A DNA stretch of 64,000 nucleotides, from positions 18,080 to 82,079 of the forward strand of contig MHHG01000073.1 in assembly GCA_001805965.1 (NCBI GenBank). Reading direction: 5' to 3'. Below, one piece after another: positions 32,548 to 61,734 of the stretch. The notes under the pieces were generated by a model, which searched no databases, was not told where the DNA came from, and saw only the letters and a list, made by a program, of their open reading frames with translations. Position numbers and translations under genes: made by a program. The stretch is from Omnitrophica WOR_2 bacterium RIFOXYA2_FULL_38_17. GTDB lineage: Bacteria > Omnitrophota > Gorgyraeia > Zapsychrales > Zapsychraceae. The first letter of the stretch is position 1; each line of letters begins with the position of its first letter.

Positions 32548-33329
32548 TGAACATAATAGTATGCATAAAACAAGTACCTGACACAACCCAGGTAAAAATA
32601 GACCCAAAAACAAACACCTTGATTAGAGAAGGTGTCGAGTCCATCATAAACCCTTTTGACATGTACGCCATTGAAGAAGGCGTAAGGCTAAAAGAAAAGT
32701 TCGGCGGAAAAGTTATTGCGATAACAATGGGGCCGCCTCAAGCAGAAGCAGCATTACGTGAAGCAATTTCTCTGGGATGCGATGATGGCATTTTGGTAAG
32801 TGACAGGGCTTTTGCAGGATCAGATACTCTTGCAACAAGCTACACCCTAGCAATGGCAGTTAAAAAAATTGAAACTTTTGATATTATTATTTGCGGAAAA
32901 CAAGCATCAGATGGAGACACTGCTCAGGTCGGGCCTGGTATCGCAGCACATCTCAACATCCCACAAGTCACATACGTCAAACATATCAAAGAAGCAGACG
33001 AAGAAGCGATCACAGTTGAAAGAATGACCGAAGAGGGTTCAGAGATTTTAAGATCACCTTTACCTTGCTTAATAACAGTTGTCAAGGAAATCAACGAGCC
33101 GAGGATCCCTTCATTAAAAGGGAAGATGAAAGCCAAAAAAGCTGAGCTTACATGCTGGAAAGCTATTGACATTGATTGTGATGATGAACGCCTGGGCTTA
33201 AATGGTTCACCAACTCAGGTCGTTAGGATATTTACACCGCCGCCAAGGGCGCAAGGCGAAATACTTGAAGGTGACCCCCAGGAAACGACAAGCAAACTAG
33301 TTGAAATGTTAAAGGATAGCATACAATAA
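32547..33329 (+). CDS. etfB: Electron transfer flavoprotein beta subunit
   Basis: MNIIVCIKQVPDT start and EtfB fold motifs. 260 aa. Translationally coupled to bcd. Confidence 0.9.
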   Translation: MNIIVCIKQVPDTTQVKIDPKTNTLIREGVESIINPFDMYAIEEGVRLKEKFGGKVIAITMGPPQAEAALREAISLGCDDGILVSDRAFAGSDTLATSYTLAMAVKKIETFDIIICGKQASDGDTAQVGPGIAAHLNIPQVTYVKHIKEADEEAITVERMTEEGSEILRSPLPCLITVVKEINEPRIPSLKGKMKAKKAELTCWKAIDIDCDDERLGLNGSPTQVVRIFTPPPRAQGEILEGDPQETTSKLVEMLKDSIQ

Positions 33330-33330
33330 A

Positions 33331-34582: not shown

Positions 34583-37531
34583 TCAGGCACTGTTTCGAAT
34601 CAACTCTTTACGATTATTCCCAAGCAACATCAGAATGTTCGACACAGGAGTAACATTTATTATAACAGGTACGAAGCCTTCAATATTCAGGTCATAAATT
34701 GGCTGTTCATCCAGCGGAAGAGGGATACCCGCGCTATTTCTTTTTATCTGAAGGTCAAGCATGTCAGAATTAAAATCAATACCACCGACATTCTCCGATC
34801 CTTTTTCATTTGTAACGCCACCTTCATTAACTGTTGATGTTTCATTGTTCAATAATACTGCCTTTTCGATCCCTTCAAGGTCACCGGCAGCAATCTGATC
34901 AAAATACGCATCGATCTTAGCCAAATGCTTATCAATGTTCCCTTGCGCGTCCTGTTTCAGCTTAATAAGTGTTGCCAACAAATATCCGGCTTCCTCACGT
35001 TCAAAATCATCTTCGCTCATTCCCTCATAAACAGCTCTTACGACCTCAATATCGGAAGAGAGATCTCTTAATTCACCCGAAAAACCTTTTTCTTCAACCA
35101 AGTCAATCCTTTGGGAAAGATCTAAAACTCTGCGCTGGATATCATCTGTTCTCCCGATCTCATAAGAAGATTGAAGCCTAACAACATTTTCGATATTTTT
35201 CATGACATCTTGCCCTTCTGCCCCTAAACCTTCTGCCATCTTCCTAGCAGTTTCTATCGCATAATTCGCTTCCCCTTTGACAAAGTCACTTGACCTTTCA
35301 AAAATACGTCGCAATGTAAAAGGCTCAGCAGGATCACTAAAATTTGTTACCACGAGTCCATACTTTTTGAAGATCTCCCCATCTGAATACTCCACATTCT
35401 CCCCTTCAGCCTTAAAATCAACCATGCGTCTTGCTGGAGTAATGCGGTCCAAAGCATATCCAAAAGATATCAGCTCACTTGCCTCAATCTTTGAAATATT
35501 AAGCAAATTAACCACATAATCACGCACCTTGATCCTTAAAGAGTCTGGATTGGTTATTTTTCCTTCACTATTAATATCTGTAATAAGAAGCACCGGCAAT
35601 AGATTGTTAGGTATGTTTATCCCTATATTTGGCAATACAATCGTAGCCACAAAATCAATTGGATTTCCGGGATGATGAGCAGCAATGATCAAAGCAAGAC
35701 CCAAAGCCTCATCAGGCTCAAAGCCCGCCTCCTCCAGACGTTCTATTGTAGCTATCATGCTCAAAGTACCATGCATAATAACTTTTTCCACCAGAGGATT
35801 ACCCTTATTTGCCAGCATAAAAGCATAGATAGCCTCAGCCCTTTCTACTGCGTCTTCATGGGAAAGCCCTAAAATCCGTTCCCCTATCTTAATCCACAAG
35901 TCAATAAACTTGATTTTAAATGCAGGGTCTGAAACATCCATTGCATAGGCAAGGTCATGGGTTTCGGCAAATAGTTCGCCAAAGGACGCCATTTCATCAG
36001 ATATCAAACCACGCTCATGAAGGGATTCAATAAGAGCCCTGTGGGAATTAATATGGGCAGCCACTGGCGGCGAATAATTCTCAGGCCTTCTGTTGGATGC
36101 AATTGCAGCCGCATTTAATAATTTATCTTTATATGCTACGAGAACCGGCCTGCCCTTACCCTGCAGGTCCTCAAGCCTTACTTCCGGATTATCAATTAAA
36201 CCAAGCATTGACCGGTCCGGCCCTTTCAAAGAAACAGGATTTTCGGCTAAATATTTTTCATTATTAGGATTCGCTTCCAACATATTTACATCAACTTCAA
36301 ATTTCTTGGAAAGCATTGAACTATCGCCAAGATTCTTCTCAACATATGCTTTTTGTTCAGATCCGAGGTTCTCAACTGGGCCCTTAACCGTCTCAATAAT
36401 TTCCGGAAGAGTTTCACCGAACTGATTCTGAGAAATAAAACCTCCGGAAAAATATTTCCTTGGGATGATCTCCTGGCTTATCGGATCATAATCTTCCTTT
36501 ATATAATTAAAAACCCCCTGCTTAAAAGCCTCAATATATTGGCGATAGATCTTTTTGCTCACATCTTTATCCTCGAGATCTATACCTTTCACCTTATTCT
36601 TATCAACATAGACCTGGCCCATCAAAGATTGTTTTAAGTTGCTCTTATACCAAGCGGCAAGTATCATGGAATTATACATCTGCCTTAACTTAATAAATGT
36701 TCTGCCATGATTTATCTCGCGCTCGATCTCAGGGATAAGGATCTCTTTAATGACCTCTTTGATCTCATCCAACTGCTGTGGATTCTCAGCCCTCTCTTCT
36801 TCAGCGCCTAAAATATCTGACATTTCAGAATCTTCAAATGTGCTCCTAAAAGCCATATAGTCTGATTCAAGCATAACCTTAAGATTGCTTTCAAGAACAA
36901 AAACCATTCCTTGGTCCTCATATAACACGGCTTTATCCGGAACGATCCAAACCTTATTAAATGTATCCATGGGTATATCCGTGATCCCGTATCTCTCATA
37001 AGCTATCTTATAAACTCTTGCCCAGAATTCTTCTCCCAATTCATCCTCCGGATACATAAGGGATGCTGTTAACTGCTTCAACAAATAATCCTGAGCCAGA
37101 AGGTCCCTTCCCATTTCCGTATGCCCAAAATTCTCTGGAATGATCCTGTTATTTTCATAAGGGGATAAATTGACCCACATATCTTCTTCAGGAGTAGTCA
37201 ATGATGCCAAGAAATACTTTATAAGCTTTTCAGATTCATATTTAAGCTCTTCATCCTCAATTTGAGAATCTCCGGTATCAATTATGAATTTAAAGCGTAA
37301 TGGATTTTCAGGAAATGTTTGTATGCCTTTAATTACAGCAGGGTAAAAAGCTGGGGTTACTGTTACTATTGTTCCTACTTGCGGCAGCGAGAAAATACTT
37401 TGAGCATAAACATTTGCCGGCAATATAAAATTAGAGGTCACAAATGCTAAAACTATTATAAAAACCGATAATTTGTATACAAAATTGTCAGATTTTTTTC
37501 TTAAGTAAATTGCCATCTCATACCTCAACAT
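34583..37531 (-). CDS. Large exported multidomain protein (982 aa); paralog of 51738..55277 over the N-terminal ~330-aa domain and the C-terminal ~70-aa module
   Basis: Sec-type signal peptide with VYA/Q cleavage site. The N-terminal domain is highly similar to that of the 1179-aa protein. The central region has His/Asp motifs (AAHINSHRA...ETHDLAY...IMHG...AAHHPG) suggesting an HD-like hydrolase. The C-terminal conserved module is NVGGIDFN...IKR...IP.P...GFVPVIINVTPV followed by a short charged tail. Confidence 0.7.
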   Translation of the reverse strand: MLRYEMAIYLRKKSDNFVYKLSVFIIVLAFVTSNFILPANVYAQSIFSLPQVGTIVTVTPAFYPAVIKGIQTFPENPLRFKFIIDTGDSQIEDEELKYESEKLIKYFLASLTTPEEDMWVNLSPYENNRIIPENFGHTEMGRDLLAQDYLLKQLTASLMYPEDELGEEFWARVYKIAYERYGITDIPMDTFNKVWIVPDKAVLYEDQGMVFVLESNLKVMLESDYMAFRSTFEDSEMSDILGAEEERAENPQQLDEIKEVIKEILIPEIEREINHGRTFIKLRQMYNSMILAAWYKSNLKQSLMGQVYVDKNKVKGIDLEDKDVSKKIYRQYIEAFKQGVFNYIKEDYDPISQEIIPRKYFSGGFISQNQFGETLPEIIETVKGPVENLGSEQKAYVEKNLGDSSMLSKKFEVDVNMLEANPNNEKYLAENPVSLKGPDRSMLGLIDNPEVRLEDLQGKGRPVLVAYKDKLLNAAAIASNRRPENYSPPVAAHINSHRALIESLHERGLISDEMASFGELFAETHDLAYAMDVSDPAFKIKFIDLWIKIGERILGLSHEDAVERAEAIYAFMLANKGNPLVEKVIMHGTLSMIATIERLEEAGFEPDEALGLALIIAAHHPGNPIDFVATIVLPNIGINIPNNLLPVLLITDINSEGKITNPDSLRIKVRDYVVNLLNISKIEASELISFGYALDRITPARRMVDFKAEGENVEYSDGEIFKKYGLVVTNFSDPAEPFTLRRIFERSSDFVKGEANYAIETARKMAEGLGAEGQDVMKNIENVVRLQSSYEIGRTDDIQRRVLDLSQRIDLVEEKGFSGELRDLSSDIEVVRAVYEGMSEDDFEREEAGYLLATLIKLKQDAQGNIDKHLAKIDAYFDQIAAGDLEGIEKAVLLNNETSTVNEGGVTNEKGSENVGGIDFNSDMLDLQIKRNSAGIPLPLDEQPIYDLNIEGFVPVIINVTPVSNILMLLGNNRKELIRNSA

Positions 37532-37685: not shown

Positions 37686-38903
37686 CTATTTAATAGAAAC
37701 GTCTGTTTTCTTTGGAACAATAACAATACCGGATGTCGTAAGAACAAAACGTTTTTTATCAAGCTCCAGATCGTACCCTATCTCAGTATTCGCAGGAATT
37801 ATAACCTCTTTGTCAATAATAGCATTCCTGACCTTGGCATTCTCGCCTATCTGAACGCCTTCCATTATTATTGAATTCTTGACGTGGGCACCTTCTTTGA
37901 TTGTTACATTTGGAGAAAGGATTGAATTATCAACCTCCCCGCCTTCAATTATACATCCTCCTGATATCATTGAATTATATATAGCCCCTGAACCAGAAGG
38001 TTTTGTGATCATTCTGATCGGAGGATACTGCTCGTGGTAAGTCCTAACCCTCCAATCTTCATCGTAAAGGTCAAAATCAGAATTTGGCTTCAAAAGGTCC
38101 ATATTTGCCTGATAATATGCATCTCTTGTCCCAATATCCCTCCAATACACAGGCTTGCCTCCGGCATTTTGCGCAAAATCATAAACATACACTTTCTTTT
38201 TGCTTTTCAACATCTGTGGAATAATATTCTTTCCAAAATCATGGCTTGAAGTAACATTTTTAGAATCAATTTCCAGTTCTTTTAACAGAACATCCTTTTT
38301 AAAAAGATATATCCCCATTGAAGCAAATATCTCGGATTTCTTTGAAGGTATTACTTTTGGGTGCACAGGCTTTTCCTGAAATCCAAGGACCCGGTTCTCA
38401 GCATTAACTTCAACAACACCAAAATCCTTAGACATTTTTTTGGGCATATTAACACAGGCAACAGTAACATCAGCATCCTTTTCTTCATGGAACTTAACCA
38501 TATCCCTATAGTTCATCTTATAAATATGGTCACCGGCAAGGATCAAAACCCTGTCCGGAGCACAATCATTGATCGCATATATATTCTGATAAATAGCGTC
38601 AGCCGTTCCTTTATACCAATCAGAGCTTATCCTTTGCTGTGCAGGGATAACATCAATAAACTCGCCTAATTGGCTTGAGAATACATTCCATCCCGCCAAC
38701 AAATGTTTTTGCAGGGAAAAAGATTTATACTGGGTAAGAACATAGATCCTCCTTAACCCGGAGTTAACACAATTACTCAAAGTATAATCAATGATCCTAT
38801 ATATCCCGGCAAATGGGACAGCAGGCTTTGCCCGGTCCCTGGTTAAGGGATCAAGCCTTTCACCACGCCCACCGGCTAAAATAAAAGTTAAGGTTTTACG
38901 CAT
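37686..38903 (-). CDS. glgC: Glucose-1-phosphate adenylyltransferase
   Basis: FILAGGRGERLDPLTRDRAKPAVPFAGIYRIIDYTLSNCVNSG N-terminal signature and C-terminal left-handed beta-helix. 405 aa. Confidence 0.9.
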   Translation of the reverse strand: MRKTLTFILAGGRGERLDPLTRDRAKPAVPFAGIYRIIDYTLSNCVNSGLRRIYVLTQYKSFSLQKHLLAGWNVFSSQLGEFIDVIPAQQRISSDWYKGTADAIYQNIYAINDCAPDRVLILAGDHIYKMNYRDMVKFHEEKDADVTVACVNMPKKMSKDFGVVEVNAENRVLGFQEKPVHPKVIPSKKSEIFASMGIYLFKKDVLLKELEIDSKNVTSSHDFGKNIIPQMLKSKKKVYVYDFAQNAGGKPVYWRDIGTRDAYYQANMDLLKPNSDFDLYDEDWRVRTYHEQYPPIRMITKPSGSGAIYNSMISGGCIIEGGEVDNSILSPNVTIKEGAHVKNSIIMEGVQIGENAKVRNAIIDKEVIIPANTEIGYDLELDKKRFVLTTSGIVIVPKKTDVSIK

Positions 38904-38959: not shown

Positions 38960-41299
38960 TTAATTTATATCAACTCCCTGCCCAATCAATTTCAAATTCT
39001 CCAGCTCTTTTTTTACCGCTTCATCTTTCGGGTCTTGATTCAGGGCCTTTTGCAATTCTAACTTTGCATTTTCAATATCCCCTAAAGCTTTATAAGATAA
39101 CCCGATATTTTTGTATGCCTCAGCAAGATTTTTACCCGTGTTTAAAACCACTTTATAAGTATTCAAAGCTTCTTTTAATGCACCCTGCTCATAACAAATA
39201 TCCCCTATCTTTAAAATATCGATGGAACTGTTACGGTCCATGTTATGTGCTATCTTTAAATATTTATAAGAATCCGTGTATTGTTTGTTCTGCGCATAAG
39301 TCTTCGAAAGAAGAAAATACCACTTCGGGTCTTTTGGCCACAATTTTATCATTTCCTCATATTGCTTTATTGCCCCCTCATACTGTTTCAAGTCCACGTA
39401 TACTAAAGCAAAATTCTCCCTGAAACTTTGATCATTAGGAGAGAATATTGCCGCTTTCCTTAAATACTTAAAAGCAGCCTCAAATTTCTTATTCTTTGCA
39501 TATATTTTTCCGGTCAGGGCCAAAGCATCTGCATAATCAGGAGTGATCTCTACCGCCCTGTTAACTTCCTTCAACGCTGCCTTTCTGAAGCCTAAAGTGT
39601 CAAGCGTATAAGCCTTATAATAATTCCTGTATCCGTTCACTCTATCGTTAGCCAATTTAAAGAAATCAATATCTTCCACTTGCCACCTGCTTAGATCCAA
39701 CTCGTGTTTTTCTATAACCGCCCTGTTCTGAGGCACATCCTTTAAGAAGATAACCGCGTCATAATTCAAATAAACAAGCTTCCAATCCTTATGGTCATAT
39801 AAATAATTCAATAATTTAGGACGTATATGCTGTTTGACAGACCCTAAAAATACACCAGTTAAATTATACTGTTTTACGACCTTTTCAAAGGCCTCAAGGT
39901 CTTCACCTTTCCATATCCTGTGGTATTCCTTAAAAAACGCCCCACCATACACTTCAGTTCTTCCATCAATAAAAACCTTAATATCAGGAAAACATCTGCC
40001 AAGAAGATATGCCCCGGAATTAAAGTCATTAAAGAAATTCCCTTTTACTTTATTTTCAACAAGAAAATCAGCGCCCTTATCAGAAAAACTTCTCAGCCCT
40101 ATCCCTCCAAACTCACTCTTCCTTTCATATTTATCAAAATCATAATAACCTCTTGGCGCAACCCCGGCACAATATTGAAATATCCACGCTAAAAGAAGAA
40201 GGTTGCAAAATATCATTGTTATATACTGAAATTTCTTCTGGGTAAATCTCAGCGGAATAATTTCTTCAAATGAAAGACTGAACATATTCGTCACTAAAAC
40301 CAAATATGCAGCAAAGGCAAAATACACTGTGTTTCTTAACGCCTTGAGTGAGAAGATCAAAAAAATAATCCAAAACAGCAATGCGCTAACATCTATTCTT
40401 TTGCGGTTCAAGAAAAATGAGATGGCGGAAAAAAGCATTATGATCTTATAGAATATAAATTGACCGCCGATAAAAAGAGTATCACTTGTAATAGGTTTGG
40501 CAAGCTCCTGGATATAATCAAAGAAAACTTTATTCTCTCCCCCCAGAGAAAAGAACACGCCTATAGGATAAAAGGCTCCTTTAATAAATCCCGGATTTAT
40601 AAGACAAGCCAATAGCACAAAAACAAATATCTTCTTTAATCTGCCGAACTCATCATCAGTTAACCTTCCTGACTCATTCCACTCATATGGTAAAGGCACA
40701 TGCCTCTTTAACAGTTCTGCTGTGATTCCCAACAGAACAAATAACGGCCCGAAGAAAAAATAACCGTGCATGTTCGACCAAAGGACCTGAGCAATGAATA
40801 AAGTAAATACCGACCATCTCTTATCGATATGCAAAGCAAGAACATAAATATAGTAAACAAAGAAAAACAGGCTAAAAATATCAGGCCTTATCGTAAAGCG
40901 CTGCTGAAAAGTTAAATATGCAAGCAGAAGGAAAAATGTCGAGAATAACTGCTTATCCCTGTTGTACCCTATCAACACAAGCATGCCTAAGGTCAAGCCG
41001 GTAACTACGATCTGCATTTTTAAAAGCCCATCCGGCCCGAAATTATTGAAGAGATTATAAAGTATGACCTGAAAGAGCCATTCATGGTTCACCCAGGGTG
41101 CGCCGGCAATTGAACATGAAAGAAAATCCACGTTAGGAACATAACCGTGCTGGACAATATATTTTCCTGTCGCTAAATGCAGCCAAAGATCAAGGTCCTT
41201 AATCTCTATATTCGCGACATAAACTAAAAGCCCGAATAACGCGCCTACCGGCAATAAGCCTGCAATAAAGTGGGCTTTCTTCAATAATGAATCTCTCAT
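38960..41299 (-). CDS. Multi-TM (GT-C-like) membrane protein with central soluble domain and C-terminal TPR repeats (779 aa)
   Basis: About 11 predicted TM helices in the N-terminal 380 aa, with a first-loop acidic motif EIKDLDLW and NHEWLFQ. C-terminal TPR units (ALALTGKIYAKNKKFEAA, YKNIGLSYKALGD). Confidence 0.7.
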   Translation of the reverse strand: MRDSLLKKAHFIAGLLPVGALFGLLVYVANIEIKDLDLWLHLATGKYIVQHGYVPNVDFLSCSIAGAPWVNHEWLFQVILYNLFNNFGPDGLLKMQIVVTGLTLGMLVLIGYNRDKQLFSTFFLLLAYLTFQQRFTIRPDIFSLFFFVYYIYVLALHIDKRWSVFTLFIAQVLWSNMHGYFFFGPLFVLLGITAELLKRHVPLPYEWNESGRLTDDEFGRLKKIFVFVLLACLINPGFIKGAFYPIGVFFSLGGENKVFFDYIQELAKPITSDTLFIGGQFIFYKIIMLFSAISFFLNRKRIDVSALLFWIIFLIFSLKALRNTVYFAFAAYLVLVTNMFSLSFEEIIPLRFTQKKFQYITMIFCNLLLLAWIFQYCAGVAPRGYYDFDKYERKSEFGGIGLRSFSDKGADFLVENKVKGNFFNDFNSGAYLLGRCFPDIKVFIDGRTEVYGGAFFKEYHRIWKGEDLEAFEKVVKQYNLTGVFLGSVKQHIRPKLLNYLYDHKDWKLVYLNYDAVIFLKDVPQNRAVIEKHELDLSRWQVEDIDFFKLANDRVNGYRNYYKAYTLDTLGFRKAALKEVNRAVEITPDYADALALTGKIYAKNKKFEAAFKYLRKAAIFSPNDQSFRENFALVYVDLKQYEGAIKQYEEMIKLWPKDPKWYFLLSKTYAQNKQYTDSYKYLKIAHNMDRNSSIDILKIGDICYEQGALKEALNTYKVVLNTGKNLAEAYKNIGLSYKALGDIENAKLELQKALNQDPKDEAVKKELENLKLIGQGVDIN

Positions 41300-41341
41300 T
41301 CGCCGACCTCTCTACGATTAATTCTTATCATTAATAAGATC

Positions 41342-43366
41342 TTATTTTCCAAGCGCAGAAAGCTTGCCTTCTAATTCAACAACCTCAGGAATGCTCCTTA
41401 GCTTCCCCTGAACCATTGATAATTGCTGCCTGGATTTATCAATCTCTCCGAGGTTAAAATATGTAAGCGCCAGTAAATATCTGGTCTCAGGGTCTTTCTG
41501 GTCTAAAAGTTTTGCTACTCTGAGTTTCTTGAACGCGTTTTCAAAATCACCGTTCTCAATATCAGCTTTTCCCAAGATCACATACAAATGTGAATAATAA
41601 GGAAAATACTTCAGGGCTTCTAACGCCTCTTCTTTAGCTTTCTCAACTTCACCCATATTTAACAGAGCATATGCTCTATTGGCATACCTGTAAGGAGTTA
41701 TGTTCTTCAGTCCCAACTTTGCGATATCAAGCCTTTGAGGCTCATAATCCTTAAGATCGATCCTGAATTTATCTATTACCTGCCGATTTTTTTCAACGTC
41801 CTTAAGAAAGACCACTGCATCATAATCGAAATATACCAATACCCATTCGGGTGATCTATAAATATGTTTTACTATCTTTGCATAGGAAGGGTCATAAAGT
41901 AAATTAAGAAAGGCGCCTGTCAGATCGAATTTCTTCTGAAATCTATCAAAGGTCTCGCTATCACCCTCAATCGTCTTTCTATACAGCTGAAAGAACGTTG
42001 AACCATATACTTCAGTTCTTCCATCTATAAAGACCTTAATATTAGGGAACGTGCGCCCGATCAAATAAGCCCCTGAATTAAAATCATTAAAGATCCCGCC
42101 TTTAATATTATTCTCAACAATAAAATCTACTGCTTTCTCGGGAAAATTATGTTTTGAAACTCCTCCATATTCGCTCTTTCGTTCATACTTATCAAAATCA
42201 AAATACCCCTGCAAAGAAAATGCATCAATAGTTTTGATCATATGATTGATCATCAGCAGATTTATCAAGATCATGCAAACCAGTTTCATACGTTTACCAG
42301 AAACCACAGGCGGTATCAATTTATCATAATCAACATACTGCATATTGATGACCACAACAAAAAAAGCGACAAAGCTAAAGAAAACCATATTTCTGACAGC
42401 ATTTAGCGAAAAAAACAAAAATATCAACCATACAAACAACACGCTCAGGTCTATCTTTTTTATATTGAACAAAAAGCTTAAAGCAGAAATAACGATCAAT
42501 ATCTTGTAGTAAGGATATTCACCCGGCGAAAAAATCGTATTAAGGCTGATAGGCTTTGCTAGCTCAGTGATGTGTTCAAAAAATACTTTTGAATCCCCTG
42601 ATAAAGAGAACATAACCTTTAAAGGATAGATGAAGCCCACGATAGAATGCGGATTGACAAGGCACGATGCTGTTACTACCCAAAAAGCCAACTTAATATT
42701 TCCATATTCCTCATTATCAAGACGGCCTATATTGTTCCATTCAAAACATAGCGGGACTTTTCTCTTTATTATCTCAGACAGGATTCCTATCAAAAGCACG
42801 GCTGGCCCAAGGATGAAATACCCGTGAATATTACACCAGGCAATTTGAATGATAGCCAAAAGCCATATTGTGCTTTTCTTTTGCATTCTCGATGACAAAA
42901 AAAAGAAAAATACAGATAGAAATAAAAGGCTGAATATCTCGGGGCGGATCGTCATTCTGTTCTGAGCAACCATCAGGACCAAATACAATAAGAGCACGGG
43001 CAAAGTCAGCCGCTCGATATCAAAAACAGCAAAGAGAAAGACAAAAAATATCAAAGTAAACAAAACCACCCTTAGCATTATCAAGCCTTCAATGCCGCCA
43101 AGCTTATAAACATTGAACACTGTTATCTGGAACAGCCACTCGTGGTTACTCCACGACTTATCCTTTAATGTAGATGACAGAATGTCAACATTTGGGACTG
43201 ACCCGGTTTCGCTGATATATTTACCCACGCCTAAATGCAGCCAAAGGTCATGGTCCTTGATCTCAAGGTTTGCAGAGAATATTATCAGTCCGAACAGGAC
43301 AAGAAGCGCTATCAAGCCTGTTGAAGTATTTATTTTTTCATAAAACCATTCAGACATTTTATACAT
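41342..43366 (-). CDS. Multi-TM (GT-C-like) membrane protein with C-terminal TPR repeats; tandem paralog of 38960..41299
   Basis: Shares LEIKDHDLWLHLGVGKY...NHEWLFQ and GYFDFDKYERKSEYGG...IKVFIDGRTEVYG with its neighbour. Start moved to ATG 43366 (MYKMSEW). The ORF-track start at 43375 is a TTG inside a GC-rich hairpin repeat. Confidence 0.7.
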   Translation of the reverse strand: MYKMSEWFYEKINTSTGLIALLVLFGLIIFSANLEIKDHDLWLHLGVGKYISETGSVPNVDILSSTLKDKSWSNHEWLFQITVFNVYKLGGIEGLIMLRVVLFTLIFFVFLFAVFDIERLTLPVLLLYLVLMVAQNRMTIRPEIFSLLFLSVFFFFLSSRMQKKSTIWLLAIIQIAWCNIHGYFILGPAVLLIGILSEIIKRKVPLCFEWNNIGRLDNEEYGNIKLAFWVVTASCLVNPHSIVGFIYPLKVMFSLSGDSKVFFEHITELAKPISLNTIFSPGEYPYYKILIVISALSFLFNIKKIDLSVLFVWLIFLFFSLNAVRNMVFFSFVAFFVVVINMQYVDYDKLIPPVVSGKRMKLVCMILINLLMINHMIKTIDAFSLQGYFDFDKYERKSEYGGVSKHNFPEKAVDFIVENNIKGGIFNDFNSGAYLIGRTFPNIKVFIDGRTEVYGSTFFQLYRKTIEGDSETFDRFQKKFDLTGAFLNLLYDPSYAKIVKHIYRSPEWVLVYFDYDAVVFLKDVEKNRQVIDKFRIDLKDYEPQRLDIAKLGLKNITPYRYANRAYALLNMGEVEKAKEEALEALKYFPYYSHLYVILGKADIENGDFENAFKKLRVAKLLDQKDPETRYLLALTYFNLGEIDKSRQQLSMVQGKLRSIPEVVELEGKLSALGK

Positions 43367-43367
43367 A

Positions 43368-43390
43368 GGGGCCAAGTCTCGACTTGCCCC
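43368..43390. repeat. GC-rich hairpin repeat GGGGCCAAGTCTCGACTTGCCCC (copy 1 of 3)
   Basis: Imperfect palindrome with a CAAGTC/GACTTG stem and GGGG/CCCC clamp, between the oppF stop and the next gene start. Copies 2 and 3 are near-identical at 49138 and 49250. Confidence 0.5.
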
Positions 43391-43400: not shown

Positions 43401-44270
43401 TTATTTTAGAAGAAAATGATTCCTGCCCATATCAACAAGACGCATTTCATCATTAAACTCTATCTTGGCACTACCCTTTACCGATCTATACTCAACAGAA
43501 GCAGCCAGCAGTTCTTTTGTATAAGGATGAAGCGGATCTTTAAAAATATCATCAGCTGATGCCAGTTCAACTATTTTTCCTTTATACATAACAGCGATCT
43601 TCTGACATATCTTCTGCACTACCTTCAAGTTATGGGATATAAACAAATATGTCAGATCATACCTCTTTCTAAGGTCCGCCAGAAGATCTACGATCTGCTT
43701 TTGTATTATAACATCCAGGGAAGAAACAGCCTCATCAAGAATCAATAATTTTGGATTAAGGACCAGCGATCTTGCAATTGCGATTCTTTGCCTTTCCCCC
43801 CCGCTAAATTCATGAGGATAACGCTCCAATATATCTCTATTCAGGTTTACTGCTGCGAACGTTTCAAATATTCTCTCTCTTCTGGTACTTTTTGAACACC
43901 ACTCTCCCTTGCCCAGGGTAAAACCCTCTTCCATAATATTCTCAATAGTGAATCGGGGATCCAGGCTGCTGTAAGGGTCCTGAAAAACCATCTGCATATT
44001 ACGGCGGGCGTGCTTTAATTTTGCAGAAGATCCCTTCGTTATATCAACGCCATTAAACAAAATACTTCCTGAATCAGATTTAAGAAGCCTCAACACAATT
44101 CGCGCCAGTGTTGTCTTACCGCATCCGGACTCACCGACAAGCCCTATGTTCTCTCCCTGATTTATGACAAGGTCCACATTATCAACAGCCTTGACACATG
44201 ACCTGTTCTCGCCAAAGACCCCTGTCTTTTGATAAAAACTCTTTTTTATGTTCTTGATCTCTAATAGCAT
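43401..44270 (-). CDS. oppF: Oligopeptide/dipeptide ABC transporter ATP-binding protein
   Basis: Walker A GESGCGKTT, signature LSGGERQR, Walker B LLILDEA, C-terminal oligopeptide-type extension. Confidence 0.85.
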   Translation of the reverse strand: MLLEIKNIKKSFYQKTGVFGENRSCVKAVDNVDLVINQGENIGLVGESGCGKTTLARIVLRLLKSDSGSILFNGVDITKGSSAKLKHARRNMQMVFQDPYSSLDPRFTIENIMEEGFTLGKGEWCSKSTRRERIFETFAAVNLNRDILERYPHEFSGGERQRIAIARSLVLNPKLLILDEAVSSLDVIIQKQIVDLLADLRKRYDLTYLFISHNLKVVQKICQKIAVMYKGKIVELASADDIFKDPLHPYTKELLAASVEYRSVKGSAKIEFNDEMRLVDMGRNHFLLK

Positions 44271-44277
44271 AATATTA

Positions 44278-45057
44278 TTAAGAACAGCTCAGTAACGCCT
44301 CGGTATATTTATCCTTGGGTGACCTCATAACTTCATCGGTTTTTCCAGTTTCAACTATTTTGCCGTTCGTCATGACGGCAATAGAATCGCAAAGATGGCT
44401 GACAACACCAAGGTCATGTGTTATTAATAAAATTGACAAGTTAAGTTTTTTATTAAGATCCTGAAACAATTCAATTATCTTTGCCTGAACAGTAACATCC
44501 AGATTGCTTGTAGGCTCGTCAGCAATTAACAGCTTTGGCTCTGTGGCTATCGCCTGAGCTATCATTGCACGCTGTCGCATACCACCGCTTAATTGGTGCG
44601 GGTAATTCTCATATATTTTATCCGGATAAGGCAAGCCAACCATATCAATAAGCTCGAGCACTTTCGCTTTTCTCTTATTAACATCTAGCCTGGTATGAAA
44701 TCTTAAAACTTCATTTATTTGCTCTCCGACCCTAAAAACAGGATTAAAAGCATACAAAGGCTCCTGAAAGACCATTCCTATCTTCTTGCCTCTTATCTCA
44801 CGCATTTTAGACCCTGAATATGTCAACAAATTGTAGCCTTCAAACAATATTTCCCCGCCATCTATTTTTAAAGCAGCTGCCAACAACCTGATGATCGACA
44901 AGCCGATCGTGGTTTTCCCGCTGCCTGACCCGCCGACAAGGCCAACAATACTGTTCTCAGCAATAGATAGGCTGACTTTATCTACAATGTTCTTGGACTG
45001 CTCTCCCTGTTTTACGCTGACTATCAGGTTCTGGATTTTTATTATTTTAGGCACCAT
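44278..45057 (-). CDS. oppD: Oligopeptide/dipeptide ABC transporter ATP-binding protein
   Basis: Walker A GGSGSGKTT, LSGGMRQR, LLIADEPTSNLD. Confidence 0.85.
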   Translation of the reverse strand: MVPKIIKIQNLIVSVKQGEQSKNIVDKVSLSIAENSIVGLVGGSGSGKTTIGLSIIRLLAAALKIDGGEILFEGYNLLTYSGSKMREIRGKKIGMVFQEPLYAFNPVFRVGEQINEVLRFHTRLDVNKRKAKVLELIDMVGLPYPDKIYENYPHQLSGGMRQRAMIAQAIATEPKLLIADEPTSNLDVTVQAKIIELFQDLNKKLNLSILLITHDLGVVSHLCDSIAVMTNGKIVETGKTDEVMRSPKDKYTEALLSCS

Positions 45058-46150
45058 CTACTTCACCCCTTAATAGCGGATCCAGGCAATCCCTTAATGT
45101 ATCGCCAACAACGTTAAAACAAATAACCGTCAGGAAGATCATAAAACCCGGCATCAATATCCATGGATGCATCTGAATGTGAGCTATCGCCATTGCATCG
45201 CTCAGCATATTTCCCCAACTTGCTATCGGGTCCTGTATGCCTAATCCTATCAAACTAAGCGCAGCCTCACCTAAAATATATCCCGGAATCGAAAGCATAA
45301 TAGCTACGATTGAATAGCTGACCGTATGTGGCAGAATATGTCGTATAATGATTTTAAGGTCAGATACACCAGCAGCTTTTGCAGCCAGCACATATTCACG
45401 CTCACGAAGTGTGATGCTCATGCCTCTTATGATCCTTGCTAAAGATGCCCACCCTATAAATGACAAAATAACAACTATTGCAAGATAAACCTGGAACGAG
45501 TTAAAGCTGTCAGGAACTGCCGAACGAAGCGCAAGCATCAAATAAAATCCCGGGACCATCATGAACATTTCGCACAGACGCATAATAATATTATCAATCT
45601 TACCCCCGTAATATCCGGCAACACCTCCGATAAGCAAACCTAAAGTAAAAGAGATCGATACGCCAATAAGCCCTATTGATAATGAAATACGTGCCCCGTA
45701 GATCAACCTGGAAAATATATCGCGCCCGCGTACATCCGCTCCCATAATGTATAAACGTCCCGGAGAATCAACTCCAAAAAGATGCCTGTCTGTTTTCAAC
45801 AGTCCTAATAATTTATATGCATCACCCTTATTGAATAGATGGAAATAACATTTAGTATTATCTTTCTCCACATAGGTCCTTTTATGATATTCATCGAAGT
45901 TAAAAGATAATTCCCTCACAAATGGCCAGCTAAATCTTCCATTCTCATCAACAAAATGCACTTTTGATAATGAAGCATAAGAATAATCCCTCGCTTCACT
46001 GTCATAAGTATACGGCGCAATAAAATCCGCGAATATCGCCCCAAAATATAAGATCCCAAGTATCGCAAGACATACTATCCCGCGCCTTGACCTTTTAAAC
46101 TCCGACAAAGCAAGAGCAAATTGACTTTTTGATTTAAATTGTTTGTTCAT
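45047..46150 (-). CDS. oppC: Oligopeptide ABC transporter permease
   Basis: Six TM helices and the ABC permease EAA-like region (AAKAAGVSDLKIIIRHILP). 367 aa with N-terminal extension, as in OppC/DppC. Confidence 0.85.
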   Translation of the reverse strand: MNKQFKSKSQFALALSEFKRSRRGIVCLAILGILYFGAIFADFIAPYTYDSEARDYSYASLSKVHFVDENGRFSWPFVRELSFNFDEYHKRTYVEKDNTKCYFHLFNKGDAYKLLGLLKTDRHLFGVDSPGRLYIMGADVRGRDIFSRLIYGARISLSIGLIGVSISFTLGLLIGGVAGYYGGKIDNIIMRLCEMFMMVPGFYLMLALRSAVPDSFNSFQVYLAIVVILSFIGWASLARIIRGMSITLREREYVLAAKAAGVSDLKIIIRHILPHTVSYSIVAIMLSIPGYILGEAALSLIGLGIQDPIASWGNMLSDAMAIAHIQMHPWILMPGFMIFLTVICFNVVGDTLRDCLDPLLRGEVDGA

Positions 46151-46163
46151 AGTGACATATAAT

Positions 46164-46268
46164 TGTTGTCTTAAGTTCGCTAATGTTAGCTAAAGTTCGC
46201 TGAGGTTAATTGTTCTTATTAAGTAAATTTTTTAACTTAAGACAACCTTTGCTAACATTAGCCAACCT
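46164..46268. repeat. Intercistronic element of 10-bp periodic repeats arranged as inverted blocks (oppC-oppB spacer)
   Basis: Forward decamers CGCTAATGTT, AGCTAAAGTT, CGCTGAGGTT. After a ~30-nt AT-rich spacer, reverse-strand units AACTTAAGAC, AACCTTTGCT, AACATTAGCC. Includes a perfect 13-nt inverted repeat GTTGTCTTAAGTT / AACTTAAGACAAC. Confidence 0.6.
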
Positions 46269-47237
46269 CTATTTATCATACCTAATTCTCGGATCACTCC
46301 AAGCCAATAAAATATCTGCGATCAAATTTCCTAATAAAAGTAAAACTCCACCCATTAACATACTCGACATAACCAAATAAACATCCTTAGCCCTTACTGC
46401 GGTAAGCATCAGCGAACCCAGTCCGGGCCAATTACAAATGATCTCAATAAGCGCCGCCCCGCCTAGTAAGCTTGATAGCTCATATCCGAACAATGTGATC
46501 AAAGGATTAATGGCATTTCTCAATGCATGGACATAAATAACCCTGTTTTCAGGCAGACCCTTCGCCCTTGCGGTCAAAATATATTGCTGCCTCAAAGTCT
46601 CTAAAAAGTTACCTCTCATGATCCTCTGAAGACTGGCAATAGAACCCAAAGATATCACAACCGTTGGGATGATCAAGTGCCTCAGAAGATCTATTATTTT
46701 TCCCATAAAAGTCAGATCATCAAAATTAGCGCTGTACATCCCTCCCAACGGGAAAATGCCGCTTCGGCTTGCAAAGAAAAGCAGCAACATAGCAAGGAAA
46801 AAACTGGGGATAGATAGGCAGATAAATGAAACCATCGATAATGTTTTATCAATAATACGATTACGATTCACTGCAGCTAAAATACCCAATGGTATCGCAA
46901 CTGCCCATGTCAAGACCATGCTGGCAAAGGATAAAATAAAAGTATTAAATAACCGTCCTGAAAGTATCTTTGAAACCGGCACATTGTAAAAGAATGAATA
47001 CCCGAATTCCAGATGAACGATATTTTTTAGCCAATGCAAATACTGCTGAAGCAAAGGCTTATCGAGCTGATACAGCTCTTCGTACCTAGCCAGAGTCTCT
47101 TCAGATATCTGCGGGTCCATTCTCAATGTATCAAAAAAGTTGCCTGGAGTTATATGCATCAAATAAAATGTAAGCAGGCTCATCACAAGCAGCAATGGAA
47201 TAGAAACTAAGATTCTTTTAATAATGTATTTAAACAT
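46269..47237 (-). CDS. oppB: Oligopeptide ABC transporter permease
   Basis: ABC permease with 6 TM helices and the conserved loop TARAKGLPENRVIYVHALRNA. 322 aa. Confidence 0.85.
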   Translation of the reverse strand: MFKYIIKRILVSIPLLLVMSLLTFYLMHITPGNFFDTLRMDPQISEETLARYEELYQLDKPLLQQYLHWLKNIVHLEFGYSFFYNVPVSKILSGRLFNTFILSFASMVLTWAVAIPLGILAAVNRNRIIDKTLSMVSFICLSIPSFFLAMLLLFFASRSGIFPLGGMYSANFDDLTFMGKIIDLLRHLIIPTVVISLGSIASLQRIMRGNFLETLRQQYILTARAKGLPENRVIYVHALRNAINPLITLFGYELSSLLGGAALIEIICNWPGLGSLMLTAVRAKDVYLVMSSMLMGGVLLLLGNLIADILLAWSDPRIRYDK

Positions 47238-47265
47238 AATTTATTGATCTAAAAATAAACTTATA

Positions 47266-47382
47266 ATGTTAGCAGAGGTTAGCTAAGGTTTGCTTATGTT
47301 CGCTTAGGTTAATTAGTCATGTTTAAGCAAATCTTTAACCTAAGCCAACCTTTTCCAACTTTAGCCAACATAAGCCAACCTG
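47266..47382. repeat. Second copy of the 10-bp periodic inverted repeat-block element (oppB-oppA spacer)
   Basis: Four tandem forward decamers AGCAGAGGTT, AGCTAAGGTT, TGCTTATGTT, CGCTTAGGTT. After a 30-nt spacer, four reverse-strand decamers AACCTAAGCC, AACCTTTTCC, AACTTTAGCC, AACATAAGCC. Same unit consensus nGCTnAnGTT as the 46164 element. Confidence 0.6.
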
Positions 47383-49131: not shown

Positions 49132-49137
49132 AGTATA

Positions 49138-49274
49138 GGGGTCAAGTCTCGACTTGACTACACCTTTATTATTTTCGTAAAATAAAAGTACACATGAGCG
49201 CAAACAACAAAACACTTCATTGCGAGGAATAAAAAAAGCATCTTGCATAGGGAAGCAAGTCGAGACTTGCCCCC
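49138..49274. repeat. Pair of inverted GC-rich hairpin repeats (copies 2 and 3) flanking a 91-bp AT-rich segment in the secG-oppA spacer
   Basis: GGGGTCAAGTCTCGACTTGAC at 49138..49158 and its reverse-complement form GGGAAGCAAGTCGAGACTTGCCCCC at 49250..49274. Same family as 43368..43390. Confidence 0.5.
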
Positions 49275-57986: not shown

Positions 57987-60702
<2,716 letters not shown>

Positions 60703-60706
<4 letters not shown>

Positions 60707-61722: not shown

Positions 61723-61734
61723 TATTATCTCCCA

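What the first reader, a model, noticed from the sequence alone, without database searches (positions are those of the whole stretch)
38960..43366. Tandem paralogous GT-C-like multi-TM/TPR membrane proteins immediately downstream of glgC and a giant exported protein
ORFs 41342..43366 and 38960..41299 are recent duplicates, with conserved EIKDxDLWLHL, NHEWLFQ and GYxDFDKYERKSE(F/Y)GG...IKVFIDGRTEVYG blocks. Each has an N-terminal ~11-TM domain carrying an acidic D-x-D loop motif, as in GT-C glycosyltransferases such as PglB, ArnT and PMT. A soluble middle domain and C-terminal TPR repeats follow. The window also holds two TMTC/PMT-like GT-C-TPR paralogs at 1..3529 and a further GT-C-like protein inside the gmd/fcl locus. 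TPR-fused GT-C enzymes such as eukaryotic TMTC glycosylate protein substrates recognised by the TPR domain. The giant exported proteins transcribed just downstream are obvious candidate substrates. Together this looks like an expanded protein- or glycan-glycosylation machinery.
Basis: inference. Interest (0 to 1): 0.65.

Follow-up and report, generated by a model that had tools for sequence, protein, structure and literature searches.

The report
Paired membrane glycosyltransferases of unannotated family
Two neighbouring genes in an Omnitrophota genome encode membrane enzymes whose predicted fold, though not their sequence, is that of enzymes that attach sugars to targets outside the cytoplasm; they belong to a very large family that the domain libraries searched here do not recognise, and relatives in other bacteria sit at the head of pilus operons.

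Summary
Two minus-strand ORFs, A (38960..41299, 779 aa) and B (41342..43375, about 674 aa), are paralogs with 11 TM helices, a periplasmic alpha/beta domain and C-terminal TPRs. They are not recent duplicates: identity is 43-44%, and the same B-then-A pair occurs in 20 of 78 Omnitrophota species.

Pfam, NCBIfam and PDB sequence searches find only the TPRs. An AlphaFold model (pLDDT 84.5) matches GT-C glycosyltransferases exclusively: STT3, DPY19, AglB and PglB best, then AftA and ArnT, with PMT only weakly. The periplasmic domain alone best matches the AglB C-terminal domain. There is no WWDYG motif.

The family is very large (15,403 50%-identity clusters at E<=1e-10).

In Omnitrophota the gene sits in a fixed oppF-X-glgC slot (69/72 and 60/65 loci). 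The "giant exported proteins" are not conserved partners: one is SMC, and homologs of the other lie nearby in only 8/78 loci.

TPR-less relatives head Tad/Flp pilus operons (30/49 loci). One TPR-bearing relative lies between pilR and pilA. Some relatives adjoin polyprenyl-phosphate-sugar synthases.

Best reading: periplasmic GT-C enzymes that glycosylate envelope proteins, possibly pilins. The acceptor of A and B is unproven.

The parts
38960..41299 (-). Gene A: 779-aa protein made of a GT-C-fold membrane domain, a periplasmic alpha/beta domain and TPR repeats. It is the conserved 'A-type' ortholog.
   Evidence: ORF and translation. There are 786 homologs, and the top 120 are full-length Omnitrophota proteins at 55-100% identity. 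AF2 model and Foldseek search.
41342..43375 (-). Gene B: upstream paralog of about 671-677 aa with the same architecture and fewer TPRs. The start may be TTG 43375, ATG 43366 or ATG 43357.
   Evidence: 99.8% identical to P0320, a hypothetical protein of Omnitrophica WOR_2 bacterium RIFOXYC2_FULL_38_12. All candidate catalytic residues are retained.
40151..41299 (-). A residues 1-383: GT-C-fold transmembrane domain with 11 TM helices, N-terminus cytoplasmic.
   Evidence: AF2 pLDDT 84.5, pTM 0.83. Foldseek matches STT3, DPY19, AglB, PglB, AftA, ArnT and AftD. Hydropathy and charge bias. No Pfam or PDB sequence hit.
41027..41212 (-). A residues 30-91: first periplasmic loop (EL1), carrying E32, D35, D37, W39, H41, D58 and N71-H72-E73-W74. 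D37 is the putative catalytic Asp.
   Evidence: D37, G45 and W74 are invariant, and H41 nearly so, down to 22% identity. The position, a few residues after TM1, is that of the catalytic acid in GT-C enzymes (established knowledge; inference here).
39644..40150 (-). A residues 384-552: periplasmic alpha/beta domain with the conserved motifs N424-D-F-N-x-G429-A-Y and D445-G-R-T-E449.
   Evidence: Separate AF2 model, pLDDT 88.6. The best Foldseek hit is the AglB-S2 C-terminal globular domain, 3vu0 (E 4e-3, prob 1.0, TM about 0.5), followed by the lumenal parts of DPY19 and STT3. There is no WWDYG.
39005..39622 (-). A residues 560-765: about six TPR repeats. They are periplasmic by topology.
   Evidence: Pfam TPR_11, TPR_2, TPR_14, TPR_16 and others. 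No TM segment follows TM11.
42209..43366 (-). B residues 1-386: GT-C-type transmembrane domain.
   Evidence: Aligns with A with a single one-residue gap. Family HMM score 880 bits.
41705..42208 (-). B residues 387-554: periplasmic alpha/beta domain.
   Evidence: Alignment to A. The FNDFNSGAYL and FIDGRTEVYG motifs are conserved.
41372..41704 (-). B residues 555-665: about three TPR repeats.
   Evidence: Pfam TPR_2, TPR_19 and TPR_8.
43401..49248 (-). Context: Opp/Dpp-type ABC importer operon (SBP_bac_5, two permeases, OppD, OppF) directly upstream. The gap from oppF to B is 25 nt.
   Evidence: Pfam. OppF lies directly upstream of the family gene in 69 of 72 Omnitrophota loci. No intergenic terminator-like site lies between oppF, B, A and glgC.
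37686..38903 (-). Context: glgC (glucose-1-phosphate adenylyltransferase) directly downstream of A, 56 nt away.
   Evidence: NF001947 at 551 bits, above the 470 cut-off. glgC lies directly downstream in 60 of 65 loci.

Best explanation
A and B are two anciently diverged members of a large GT-C family for which Pfam and NCBIfam have no model.

Proposed mechanism:
- An 11-TM domain places a catalytic site on the periplasmic face. The candidate residues are D37 in loop EL1, R134/R138 in EL2, N176/H178 in EL3, E265 in the long loop after TM7, and R322 at the TM9/10 turn.
- This site takes a sugar from a polyprenyl-phosphate-linked donor.
- The sugar is transferred to an acceptor held by the OST-like periplasmic alpha/beta domain (N424..G429, D445-G-R-T-E) and, in A and B, by the periplasmic TPR array.
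- The acceptor is most likely a periplasm-exposed protein. Type IV pilins or other envelope proteins are the leading candidates.

What is shown: the fold, the topology, the residue conservation, the size of the family, the synteny, and the pilin and GT2 neighbourhoods of relatives.

What is inferred: catalysis, the donor class, a protein acceptor, and the transfer of the relatives' context to A and B.

Sub-confidences: GT-C glycosyltransferase about 0.8; protein acceptor about 0.5; pilin acceptor for A and B themselves about 0.2.

A is the core copy, present in every locus sampled. B is an accessory paralog present in about a quarter of species. B either has a different acceptor range or pairs with A.
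For: Fold.
- AF2 model: pLDDT 84.5, pTM 0.83.
- All top 24 Foldseek PDB hits are GT-C enzymes. STT3 and DPY19 score E about 2-3e-7 with TM 0.55-0.59, followed by AglB, PglB, AftA, ArnT and AftD.
- The periplasmic domain alone best matches the AglB C-terminal domain, then DPY19 and STT3.

Active-site-like conservation.
- D37, W74, W174, N176, G184 and G429 are invariant, and H41, R138, P139, E265, R322, N424, D445 and R447 nearly so, down to 22% identity.
- In the 53 sequences examined, nearly all of these residues are invariant in 16 A-type, 14 B-type and 23 other sequences.
- All of these residues lie in predicted periplasmic loops or in the periplasmic domain.

Donor. GT2 genes lie next to relatives in L089, L111, L120, L112 and L113. 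Their best matches are PgfS (230 bits, full length), ArnC, AglJ, Dol-P-hexose transferase and PpgS, which are polyprenyl-monophosphate-sugar synthases.

Acceptor.
- Relatives that hhalign ties to A (probability 99.4%, E 3.5e-21) sit beside Flp pilins and the Tad machinery (L089, L095).
- In a scan of 80 metagenome loci, 30 of the 49 with enough downstream DNA read FAM then Flp then RcpC then secretin.
- The Flp tails are Ser-rich, for example ...NNVFSSVASSIQ. Pfam confirms Flp_Fap.
- A TPR-bearing relative lies between pilR and pilA (L096). Beside it is a homolog of the window's other TPR membrane proteins, T1 and T2.

Precedents. TfpW is an 11-TM GT-C with a periplasmic TPR next to pilA, and it glycosylates pilin (bioRxiv 10.1101/2020.04.19.049825). 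TMTC has 11 TM helices and a lumenal TPR (PMC7801869).
Against: - No sequence-level link to any characterised GT-C family.
- In Omnitrophota the neighbours are opp and glgC, not pilins or a GT2. The window has no Flp or N-methyl pilin ORF.
- Only 6 of 78 Omnitrophota loci have a pilin-like ORF within 10 kb.
- The pilin association was measured in one TPR-less clade, sampled as the 80 closest relatives of a protein already known to sit by Flp. The loci are therefore not independent.
- Three other distant relatives showed no informative context (L004, L006, L091).
- TPR domains also scaffold polysaccharide export.
- The C. crescentus Tad pilus shows no glycan density (PMC10710030).
Confidence: 0.55

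Rival explanations
1. A and B are GT-C glycosyltransferases that decorate a glycan or lipid rather than a protein. Candidates are LPS or lipid A, O-antigen, exopolysaccharide or another envelope polymer, as with ArnT, AftA/Emb or the GT-C component of three-component systems. The TPR would then act as a scaffold towards the outer membrane or export machinery.
For: AftA, ArnT and AftD are also significant fold matches. GT2 polyprenyl-P-sugar synthase neighbours fit the three-component glycan-modification systems equally well (PMC11127046, listed). The window carries an O-antigen-type locus with Wzy_C, Bac_transf, gmd and fcl. An Anaerolineae relative is followed by a PMT_2/DUF8201 GT-C. The gene's fixed housekeeping position suggests a general envelope role.
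Against: The best fold matches are the protein-modifying OST and DPY19 enzymes, including their acceptor-binding C-terminal domain. Relatives are tightly coupled to pilin genes rather than to polysaccharide loci. No glycan-assembly genes flank the gene in 78 Omnitrophota loci.
Confidence: 0.25
2. A and B are true oligosaccharyltransferases of the STT3/PglB/AglB kind. They would transfer a preassembled oligosaccharide from undecaprenyl-pyrophosphate to Asn in N-x-S/T sequons.
For: The highest Foldseek scores go to STT3, AglB and PglB. The periplasmic domain resembles the AglB C-terminal domain. A D-x-D lies in EL1 and a conserved Glu in a long external loop.
Against: There is no Pfam STT3 hit at E<=10. 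There is no WWDYG or WWD anywhere. The protein has 11 TM helices, not 13. The adjacent GT2s of relatives are of the monophosphate-sugar synthase type. The Flp pilins next to relatives carry no N-x-S/T sequon in their exposed tails (by inspection).
Confidence: 0.05
3. One reading: the pair glycosylates the large exported proteins encoded just downstream, which the TPRs recognise.
For: The 982-aa ORF 34583..37531 has a signal-peptide-like N-terminus. Homologs, some longer than 2,200 aa, lie within 10 kb of the family gene in 8 of 78 Omnitrophota loci, twice directly upstream (L012, L073).
Against: The association holds in only 10% of loci, with variable position and strand. The usual gene at that position is FabV. 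The protein is not Ser/Thr-rich. The second 'giant' is SMC. glgC lies between A and the 982-aa ORF.
Confidence: 0.05
4. The proteins are not enzymes. They would be membrane accessory or scaffold components of the adjacent Opp-type ABC importer, or of pilus assembly in relatives, and the GT-C fold would be a relic.
For: Near-universal adjacency and probable co-transcription with oppABCDF (69/72 loci). Five loci carry an extra TPR-less copy between oppC and oppD.
Against: The whole region, more than 20 kb from pgk-tpi-secG to smc, is collinear across the phylum, so adjacency is weak evidence of coupling. Outside Omnitrophota the family is not next to opp. Strict conservation of polar and charged loop residues down to 22% identity is typical of an active site.
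Confidence: 0.05

Closest known systems
STT3 / AglB / PglB oligosaccharyltransferases (CAZy GT66; Pfam PF02516)
   Same: Best overall fold match (E 2e-7 to 7e-6, TM 0.5-0.59). An N-terminal GT-C membrane domain is followed by a periplasmic or lumenal alpha/beta domain, which on its own best matches the AglB-S2 C-terminal domain. There is an acidic motif in EL1 and a conserved Glu in a long external loop.
   Different: No detectable sequence similarity. No WWDYG or DK/MI motif. About 11 TM helices rather than 13. An added C-terminal TPR array. The GT2 neighbours of relatives point to a monophosphate-linked monosaccharide donor, not a pyrophosphate-linked oligosaccharide.
DPY19 tryptophan C-mannosyltransferase (GT98)
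   Same: Fold match as good as STT3 (7zli, E 2.8e-7, TM 0.55, rmsd 8.8-9.4), and its lumenal part matches the periplasmic domain. It modifies peptides using a polyprenyl-monophosphate sugar.
   Different: No Pfam Dpy19 hit. DPY19 is eukaryotic, has 13 TM helices and has no TPR.
TMTC1-4 (GT105) and PMT (GT39) protein O-mannosyltransferases
   Different: No PMT, PMT_2 or DUF1736 HMM hit. No DD/DE motif. PMT structures match only weakly (E 0.012-0.17, TM 0.2-0.3). TMTC has no alpha/beta domain between TM11 and the TPRs.
TfpW, the Pseudomonas aeruginosa pilin D-arabinofuranosyltransferase
   Same: A bacterial GT-C with 11 TM helices and a periplasmic TPR domain, encoded next to its pilin substrate (bioRxiv 10.1101/2020.04.19.049825). 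Relatives of A and B are likewise encoded next to Flp or PilA pilins.
   Different: TfpW carries a DDx motif and an Emb-like proline motif, whereas A and B have D-x-W-x-H. Homology to TfpW could not be tested because no sequence was available. A and B themselves are not next to a pilin gene. The window's other pair, T1 and T2 (PFHFDD motif), looks more TfpW- or TMTC-like.
GT-C components of three-component systems (ArnT with ArnC; PgfM with PgfS; GtrC with GtrB)
   Same: ArnT is a significant fold match (E 1e-3, TM 0.5). Relatives are adjacent to GT2 enzymes that best match PgfS and ArnC.
   Different: No PMT_2 hit in our scans, although UniRef names one distant member 'RgtA/B/C/D-like domain-containing'. 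No GT2 or GtrA-like gene lies next to A or B.

Membership tests
GT-C glycosyltransferase superfamily | Polytopic membrane domain with the GT-C fold | tested here: met
   AF2 pLDDT 84.5. All top 24 Foldseek PDB hits are GT-C enzymes at prob 0.95-1.00. Transporters score prob <=0.15.
GT-C glycosyltransferase superfamily | Conserved acidic residue in the first extracytoplasmic loop, just after TM1 | tested here: met
   D37 is invariant in every alignment examined, down to 22% identity. D35 is conserved only among closer relatives.
GT-C glycosyltransferase superfamily | Use of a polyprenyl-phosphate-linked sugar donor, and measurable transferase activity | not testable with these tools
   Indirect evidence only: polyprenyl-P-sugar-synthase-type GT2 genes lie next to relatives. 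None lies next to A or B.
Oligosaccharyltransferase STT3/AglB/PglB (GT66) | Match to the STT3 sequence model (PF02516) | tested here: not met
   No Pfam hit on residues 1-550 even at E<=10. Family profiles against PDB sequences find no OST.
Oligosaccharyltransferase STT3/AglB/PglB (GT66) | WWDYG motif in the C-terminal domain | tested here: not met
   No WW or WWD in A or B. From the order of secondary-structure elements, the conserved motif that appears to occupy the corresponding strand-to-helix position reads FNDFNSGAY; this is an inference, since no structural alignment was available.
Oligosaccharyltransferase STT3/AglB/PglB (GT66) | C-terminal periplasmic or lumenal alpha/beta domain of the OST type | tested here: inconclusive
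   The best Foldseek hit of the isolated domain is AglB-S2, 3vu0 (E 4e-3, prob 1.0), but TM is only about 0.5 and Rossmann-like methyltransferases follow closely.
Oligosaccharyltransferase STT3/AglB/PglB (GT66) | 13 transmembrane helices | tested here: not met
   About 11 TM helices from hydropathy and the AF2 helices. This is a hand assignment, not a dedicated predictor.
PMT / TMTC protein O-mannosyltransferases (GT39/GT105) | Match to the PMT, PMT_2, PMT_4TMC or DUF1736 models | tested here: not met
   no such hit in A, in B or in 38 relatives.
PMT / TMTC protein O-mannosyltransferases (GT39/GT105) | DD or DE motif in EL1 | tested here: not met
   EL1 reads EIKD-L/H-D-LWLHL. The family consensus is D-[IL]-W-x-H.
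PMT / TMTC protein O-mannosyltransferases (GT39/GT105) | 11 TM helices followed by an extracytoplasmic TPR array (TMTC architecture) | tested here: met
   A 170-aa alpha/beta domain, absent from TMTC, is inserted between TM11 and the TPRs.
TfpW-like pilin glycosyltransferases | Gene adjacent to its pilin substrate | tested here: not met
   The window has no Flp or N-methyl pilin ORF. The feature is met in relatives: L089, L095, L096 and 30 of 49 metagenome loci.
TfpW-like pilin glycosyltransferases | Sequence homology to TfpW, and its DDx motif | not tested
A and B have no DD motif.

The most novel reading that the evidence does not exclude
The family is a dedicated glycosyltransferase lineage for type IV filament subunits, with an AglB/OST-like build: a GT-C membrane domain followed by an OST-type periplasmic domain. 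On this reading it heads Tad/Flp operons in soil bacteria, and it may have entered bacteria together with the archaeal-derived Tad system, in whose archaeal relatives AglB glycosylates pilins. In Omnitrophota it acquired a TPR array and became a core, sometimes duplicated, gene that glycosylates pilins or a broader set of envelope proteins. This would be a previously unrecognised bacterial protein-glycosylation pathway, present in thousands of lineages.
Probability: 0.2. Interest if true: 0.8.

Novelty: new variant of a known kind. Interest (0 to 1): 0.6.

Why it matters
The GT-C fold, and TPR-guided GT-C enzymes, are known. This family is not: Pfam, NCBIfam and the PDB sequence set recognise nothing in its 550-residue catalytic part (the IMG and NCBI names seen here likewise reflect only the TPRs), and NCBI and IMG label members only as 'tetratricopeptide repeat protein' or 'PilF'. 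Yet it comprises about 15,000 clusters at 50% identity (E<=1e-10).

It appears to be a core gene of Omnitrophota: it was found in all 78 species loci retrieved, in a fixed genomic slot. Whether species lack it was not tested.

It combines an OST-like periplasmic domain with TPRs, a domain combination I did not find described.

Its TPR-less relatives sit as the first gene of Tad/Flp pilus operons. That makes a concrete and cheap prediction: Flp pilins in those organisms carry a sugar that depends on this gene and on a neighbouring polyprenyl-phosphate-sugar synthase. A cultured host, Aromatoleum evansii, is available for the test.

If confirmed, a new bacterial protein-glycosylation family would be defined, and thousands of 'TPR proteins' would be re-annotated.

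Tried and rejected
- Pfam and NCBIfam on A, B, their N-terminal 550 residues and 38+10 relatives returned only TPR hits.

PDB sequence searches.
- Searches with the single sequence and with two family profiles returned nothing relevant.

Unavailable resources.
- Model coordinates are not exposed, so the spatial clustering of the conserved residues could not be checked.

Failed tool runs.
- The first tree script timed out.

Context look-ups that gave nothing informative.
- Nitrospinota (L004), L006 and L091.

Ideas considered and rejected.
- Functional coupling to Opp or GlgC. The whole pgk-to-smc block is collinear across the phylum, and the link disappears outside it.
- Transporter fold. Foldseek probability is <=0.15.
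- Recent tandem duplication. Identity is 44%, and the pair is conserved across species.
- SMC as an exported giant protein.

Literature.
- Searches found no description of this family or of a GT-C at the head of tad loci.
- The library covers only open-access papers, so this is not proof of absence.

Full report
WHAT IS THERE

Two ORFs lie head to tail on the minus strand.
- B is 41342..43375 if the TTG start is used. ATG starts are also possible at 43366 and 43357.
- A is 38960..41299, with an ATG start preceded by GAGAGG.
- BLASTP of A against B gives 43% identity over 646 residues with a single gap, E 8e-177.
- A family HMM finds only these two members in the window.
- B is 99.8% identical to a hypothetical protein of Omnitrophica WOR_2 bacterium RIFOXYC2_FULL_38_12. 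This identifies the source organism.

Neighbours, all on the minus strand, in order of transcription:
- pgk, tpi;
- an Opp/Dpp-type ABC importer (SBP_bac_5, two permeases, two ATPases);
- B, then A;
- glgC (NF001947, 551 bits);
- a 982-aa ORF with no family hit.

The 1134-aa ORF further on is SMC (TIGR02168, 848 bits). No terminator-like site lies in the short gaps between oppF, B, A and glgC (25, 42 and 56 nt).

SEQUENCE-LEVEL IDENTITY

Pfam and NCBIfam see only TPR repeats, at A 560-765 and B 555-665. Nothing is found in the first 550 residues, even at E<=10. The same holds for 38 relatives at 22-36% identity and for 10 more distant relatives. Neither the single sequence nor two family profiles match any PDB chain.

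FOLD

- An AlphaFold2 model of A residues 1-560, built from 30 homologs, is confident (pLDDT 84.5, pTM 0.83).
- In a Foldseek search of the PDB, the top 24 hits are all GT-C glycosyltransferases.
- STT3 (E 2.1e-7 to 9e-7, TM 0.56-0.59) and DPY19 (2.8e-7, TM 0.55) lead. AglB, PglB, AftA, ArnT and AftD follow.
- PMT structures match only weakly (E 0.012-0.17, TM 0.2-0.3). Transporters appear only at probability <=0.15.
- The 170-residue soluble domain was modelled separately (pLDDT 88.6). Its best match is the C-terminal globular domain of AglB-S2 (3vu0; E 4e-3, probability 1.0, TM about 0.5). The lumenal parts of DPY19 and STT3 follow, with Rossmann-like methyltransferases close behind.
- The GT-C assignment is therefore supported by structure. 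The nearest architecture is OST/DPY19-like rather than PMT/TMTC-like.

TOPOLOGY AND CONSERVED RESIDUES

Hydropathy, charge bias and the model's helices give 11 TM helices, a cytoplasmic N-terminus, and a periplasmic alpha/beta domain and TPR array. This is a hand assignment.

Residues that are invariant or nearly so, down to 22% identity, all fall in periplasmic loops or the periplasmic domain:
- D37, H41, G45 and W74 in EL1;
- R138 and P139 in EL2;
- Q171, W174 and N176 in and around EL3;
- P236;
- E265 in the long loop after TM7;
- R322 at the TM9/10 turn;
- N424, G429, D445 and R447 in the soluble domain.

D35, the first Asp of the 'DxD', is conserved only among closer relatives. There is no WWDYG.

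By position, D37 corresponds to the catalytic acid of GT-C enzymes, and the Arg residues to phosphate ligands. That is an inference, because no structural superposition was available.

FAMILY SIZE AND SPREAD

- A profile search of 1.84 billion cluster representatives finds 25,308 proteins at E<=1e-3, 15,403 at E<=1e-10 and 2,698 at E<=1e-30.
- Named members come from Omnitrophota, Nitrospinota, Nitrospirae, Acidobacteria, Chloroflexi/Anaerolineae, Deltaproteobacteria, Polyangia, NC10 and Eisenbacteria. Cultured members include Aromatoleum evansii and Azoarcus.
- Sources call them 'tetratricopeptide repeat protein', 'PilF', 'TadD' or 'hypothetical'.
- One UniRef name, 'Glycosyltransferase RgtA/B/C/D-like domain-containing protein', is attached to the Aromatoleum member. 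Our Pfam scan finds nothing in that protein.
- Many distant members lack the TPRs (about 480-550 aa). They keep the motifs and align to the Omnitrophota profile at hhalign probability 99.4%, E 3.5e-21.

THE PAIR IS OLD, NOT RECENT

- A close relative (87% identity) has the same B-then-A pair. So do genomes at about 58% identity.
- A scan of one genome per GTDB species returned 78 loci, all Omnitrophota by content, although some are titled 'Planctomycetales'.
- Six-frame ORFs in these loci were scored with HMMs built from the window's proteins. The results:
  - oppF lies directly upstream in 69 of 72 loci with enough DNA;
  - glgC lies directly downstream in 60 of 65;
  - a tandem pair is present in 20 of 78;
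  - an extra TPR-less copy lies between oppC and oppD in 5 of 78.
- In neighbour-joining trees the A-type copies form a tight clade. The upstream copies are more divergent and basal: B is only 43-46% identical to its positional counterparts.
- Both types keep every candidate catalytic residue, so both are probably active.
- The entire pgk-tpi-secG-opp-X-glgC-fabV-acp-smc block is collinear across the phylum. Adjacency to opp and glgC is therefore weak evidence of a shared function.

THE 'GIANT EXPORTED SUBSTRATE' IDEA

- The 982-aa ORF has a signal-peptide-like N-terminus (by eye).
- It is not Ser/Thr-rich (9.3% against a 10.4% baseline).
- Homologs lie within 10 kb in only 8 of 78 loci, with changing position and strand.
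- The other 'giant' is SMC.

CONTEXT OF RELATIVES

- In Aromatoleum evansii the 518-aa member is followed 81 nt downstream by a 308-aa GT2. That GT2 aligns end to end with PgfS (230 bits) and ArnC. The member faces a Tad locus with two Flp pilin genes.
- On a 408-kb metagenome contig the order is: sigma-54 activator, family gene, three Flp genes, prepilin peptidase, RcpC, secretin, Tad.
- In a deltaproteobacterium a 762-aa TPR-bearing member lies between pilB-pilT-pilC-pilS-pilR and a PilA-type pilin.
- Beside that member is a 584-aa DD-motif TPR protein. It is 34-36% identical (E about 1e-62) to the window's other TPR membrane proteins at 1..3529.
- A metagenome scan around the TPR-less clade returned 80 loci at 34-49% identity. 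Thirty-nine carry an Flp ORF.
- Of the 49 loci with at least 1.2 kb of downstream DNA, 30 have Flp and/or RcpC, secretin or prepilin peptidase directly downstream on the same strand.
- The Flp ORFs show the G/xxxxEY flp motif and Ser-rich tails. Pfam calls Flp_Fap in 10 of 32 at E<=1e-3.
- GT2 neighbours in four further loci best match AglJ, Dol-P-hexose transferase and PpgS.
- Caveats:
  - the sample is the set closest to a protein already known to sit by Flp;
  - three other distant contexts were uninformative;
  - an Anaerolineae member is followed by a PMT_2/DUF8201 protein instead;
  - the window has no pilin ORF;
  - only 6 of 78 Omnitrophota loci have an N-methyl pilin-like ORF within 10 kb.

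MECHANISM PROPOSED

A and B are periplasm-facing GT-C glycosyltransferases. They take a sugar from a polyprenyl-phosphate carrier and transfer it to an acceptor positioned by the OST-like domain and the TPR array. A protein acceptor is the most likely, and pilins are the leading candidates by analogy with relatives and with TfpW.

The fold, topology, conservation and contexts are shown. Catalysis, donor and acceptor are inferred.

The main rival is a glycan or lipid acceptor, as for ArnT and AftA. A PglB-type N-OST is unlikely: there is no WWDYG, there are 11 TM helices, and the relatives' partners are monophosphate-type synthases.

COMPARISON AND NOVELTY

It works like the OST, DPY19, TMTC and TfpW enzymes. 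It fails the sequence-defined membership tests of each. It is best described as a new GT-C family with a new domain combination: GT-C, an OST-type domain and TPR.

No paper on it was found in the open-access library searched. Tad pili are thought to derive from archaea, and the C. crescentus Tad pilus shows no glycan density (PMC10710030). An AglB-like enzyme at the head of tad operons would therefore be of real interest, but that link is speculative.

Noticed in passing
window 1..1575 (runs off the window start) and 1556..3529, minus strand: Two further TPR-tailed polytopic membrane proteins, T1 and T2, whose TM domains are 57% identical. Each has a PFHFDD motif just after TM1, which resembles the TMTC/TfpW DD motif. 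They have no Pfam or NCBIfam hit outside the TPRs and no sequence similarity to A or B. A homolog (34-36% identity, E about 1e-62) sits right next to a member of the A/B family, between pilR and pilA, in Deltaproteobacteria bacterium GWB2_55_19 (L096:8279-10033). Their fold was not modelled.
   Followed up: partly
window 34583..37531, minus strand; homologs in L012, L033, L036, L039, L042, L045, L054 and L073: 982-aa ORF with a signal-peptide-like N-terminus and no Pfam or NCBIfam hit. Homologs in other Omnitrophota share an N-terminal domain of about 360 aa and a C-terminal module of about 60 aa (residues about 915-975), around a variable middle. Some exceed 2,200 aa. The conserved C-terminal module could be a sorting or anchoring signal.
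   Followed up: partly
L033:6926-8524, L068:2576-4552, L071:6948-8534, L072:5184-6683, L078:6966-8495: In five Omnitrophota species an extra copy of the family lies just upstream of oppD, in four of them between the permease genes and oppD. Four of the five copies are TPR-less ORFs of about 500-530 aa, and the L068 copy is 659 aa. All keep most of the conserved residues (D37, H41, W74, R134, R138, N176, H178, E265, N424, G429, D445, R447). Four of these loci also have N-methyl pilin-like ORFs a few kb away.
   Followed up: partly
window 51738..55277, minus strand: 1179-aa protein whose C-terminal half is a GlgA-type glycogen synthase (TIGR02095, 271 bits, below the cut-off). Its N-terminal 536 residues or so have no Pfam hit. 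This is an unusual fusion, sitting between the pgk/tpi block and an ABC-F gene.
   Followed up: no
window 58928..60706, minus strand: 592-aa multi-TM ORF between fcl-like (57987..58925) and gmd (60703..61746), next to Wzy_C (61833..63155) and Bac_transf (63182..63922). It has no Pfam or NCBIfam hit at all.
   Followed up: no
window 31387..34527, plus strand, compared with L001, L002, L009 and L010: In other Omnitrophota, FabV, an HTH gene and ACP follow glgC. This genome instead has the 982-aa ORF and, on the opposite strand, an acyl-CoA dehydrogenase with EtfB and EtfA-ferredoxin genes. This is a local replacement inside an otherwise collinear block.
   Followed up: no
L092:7451-9448 (also L093, L094): In an Anaerolineae lineage a 486-aa TPR-less family member overlaps by 11 nt a downstream 665-aa protein with PMT_2 (weak) and DUF8201. 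Two different GT-C-type proteins are thus in tandem, next to rpoD and mreB.
   Followed up: no
loci L011, L013, L018, L019, L023 and others: Many genome records that carry the Omnitrophota-type opp-X-glgC block and 50-62% identical orthologs are titled 'uncultured Planctomycetales bacterium'. This is probably a naming artefact of the TPA assemblies.
   Followed up: no
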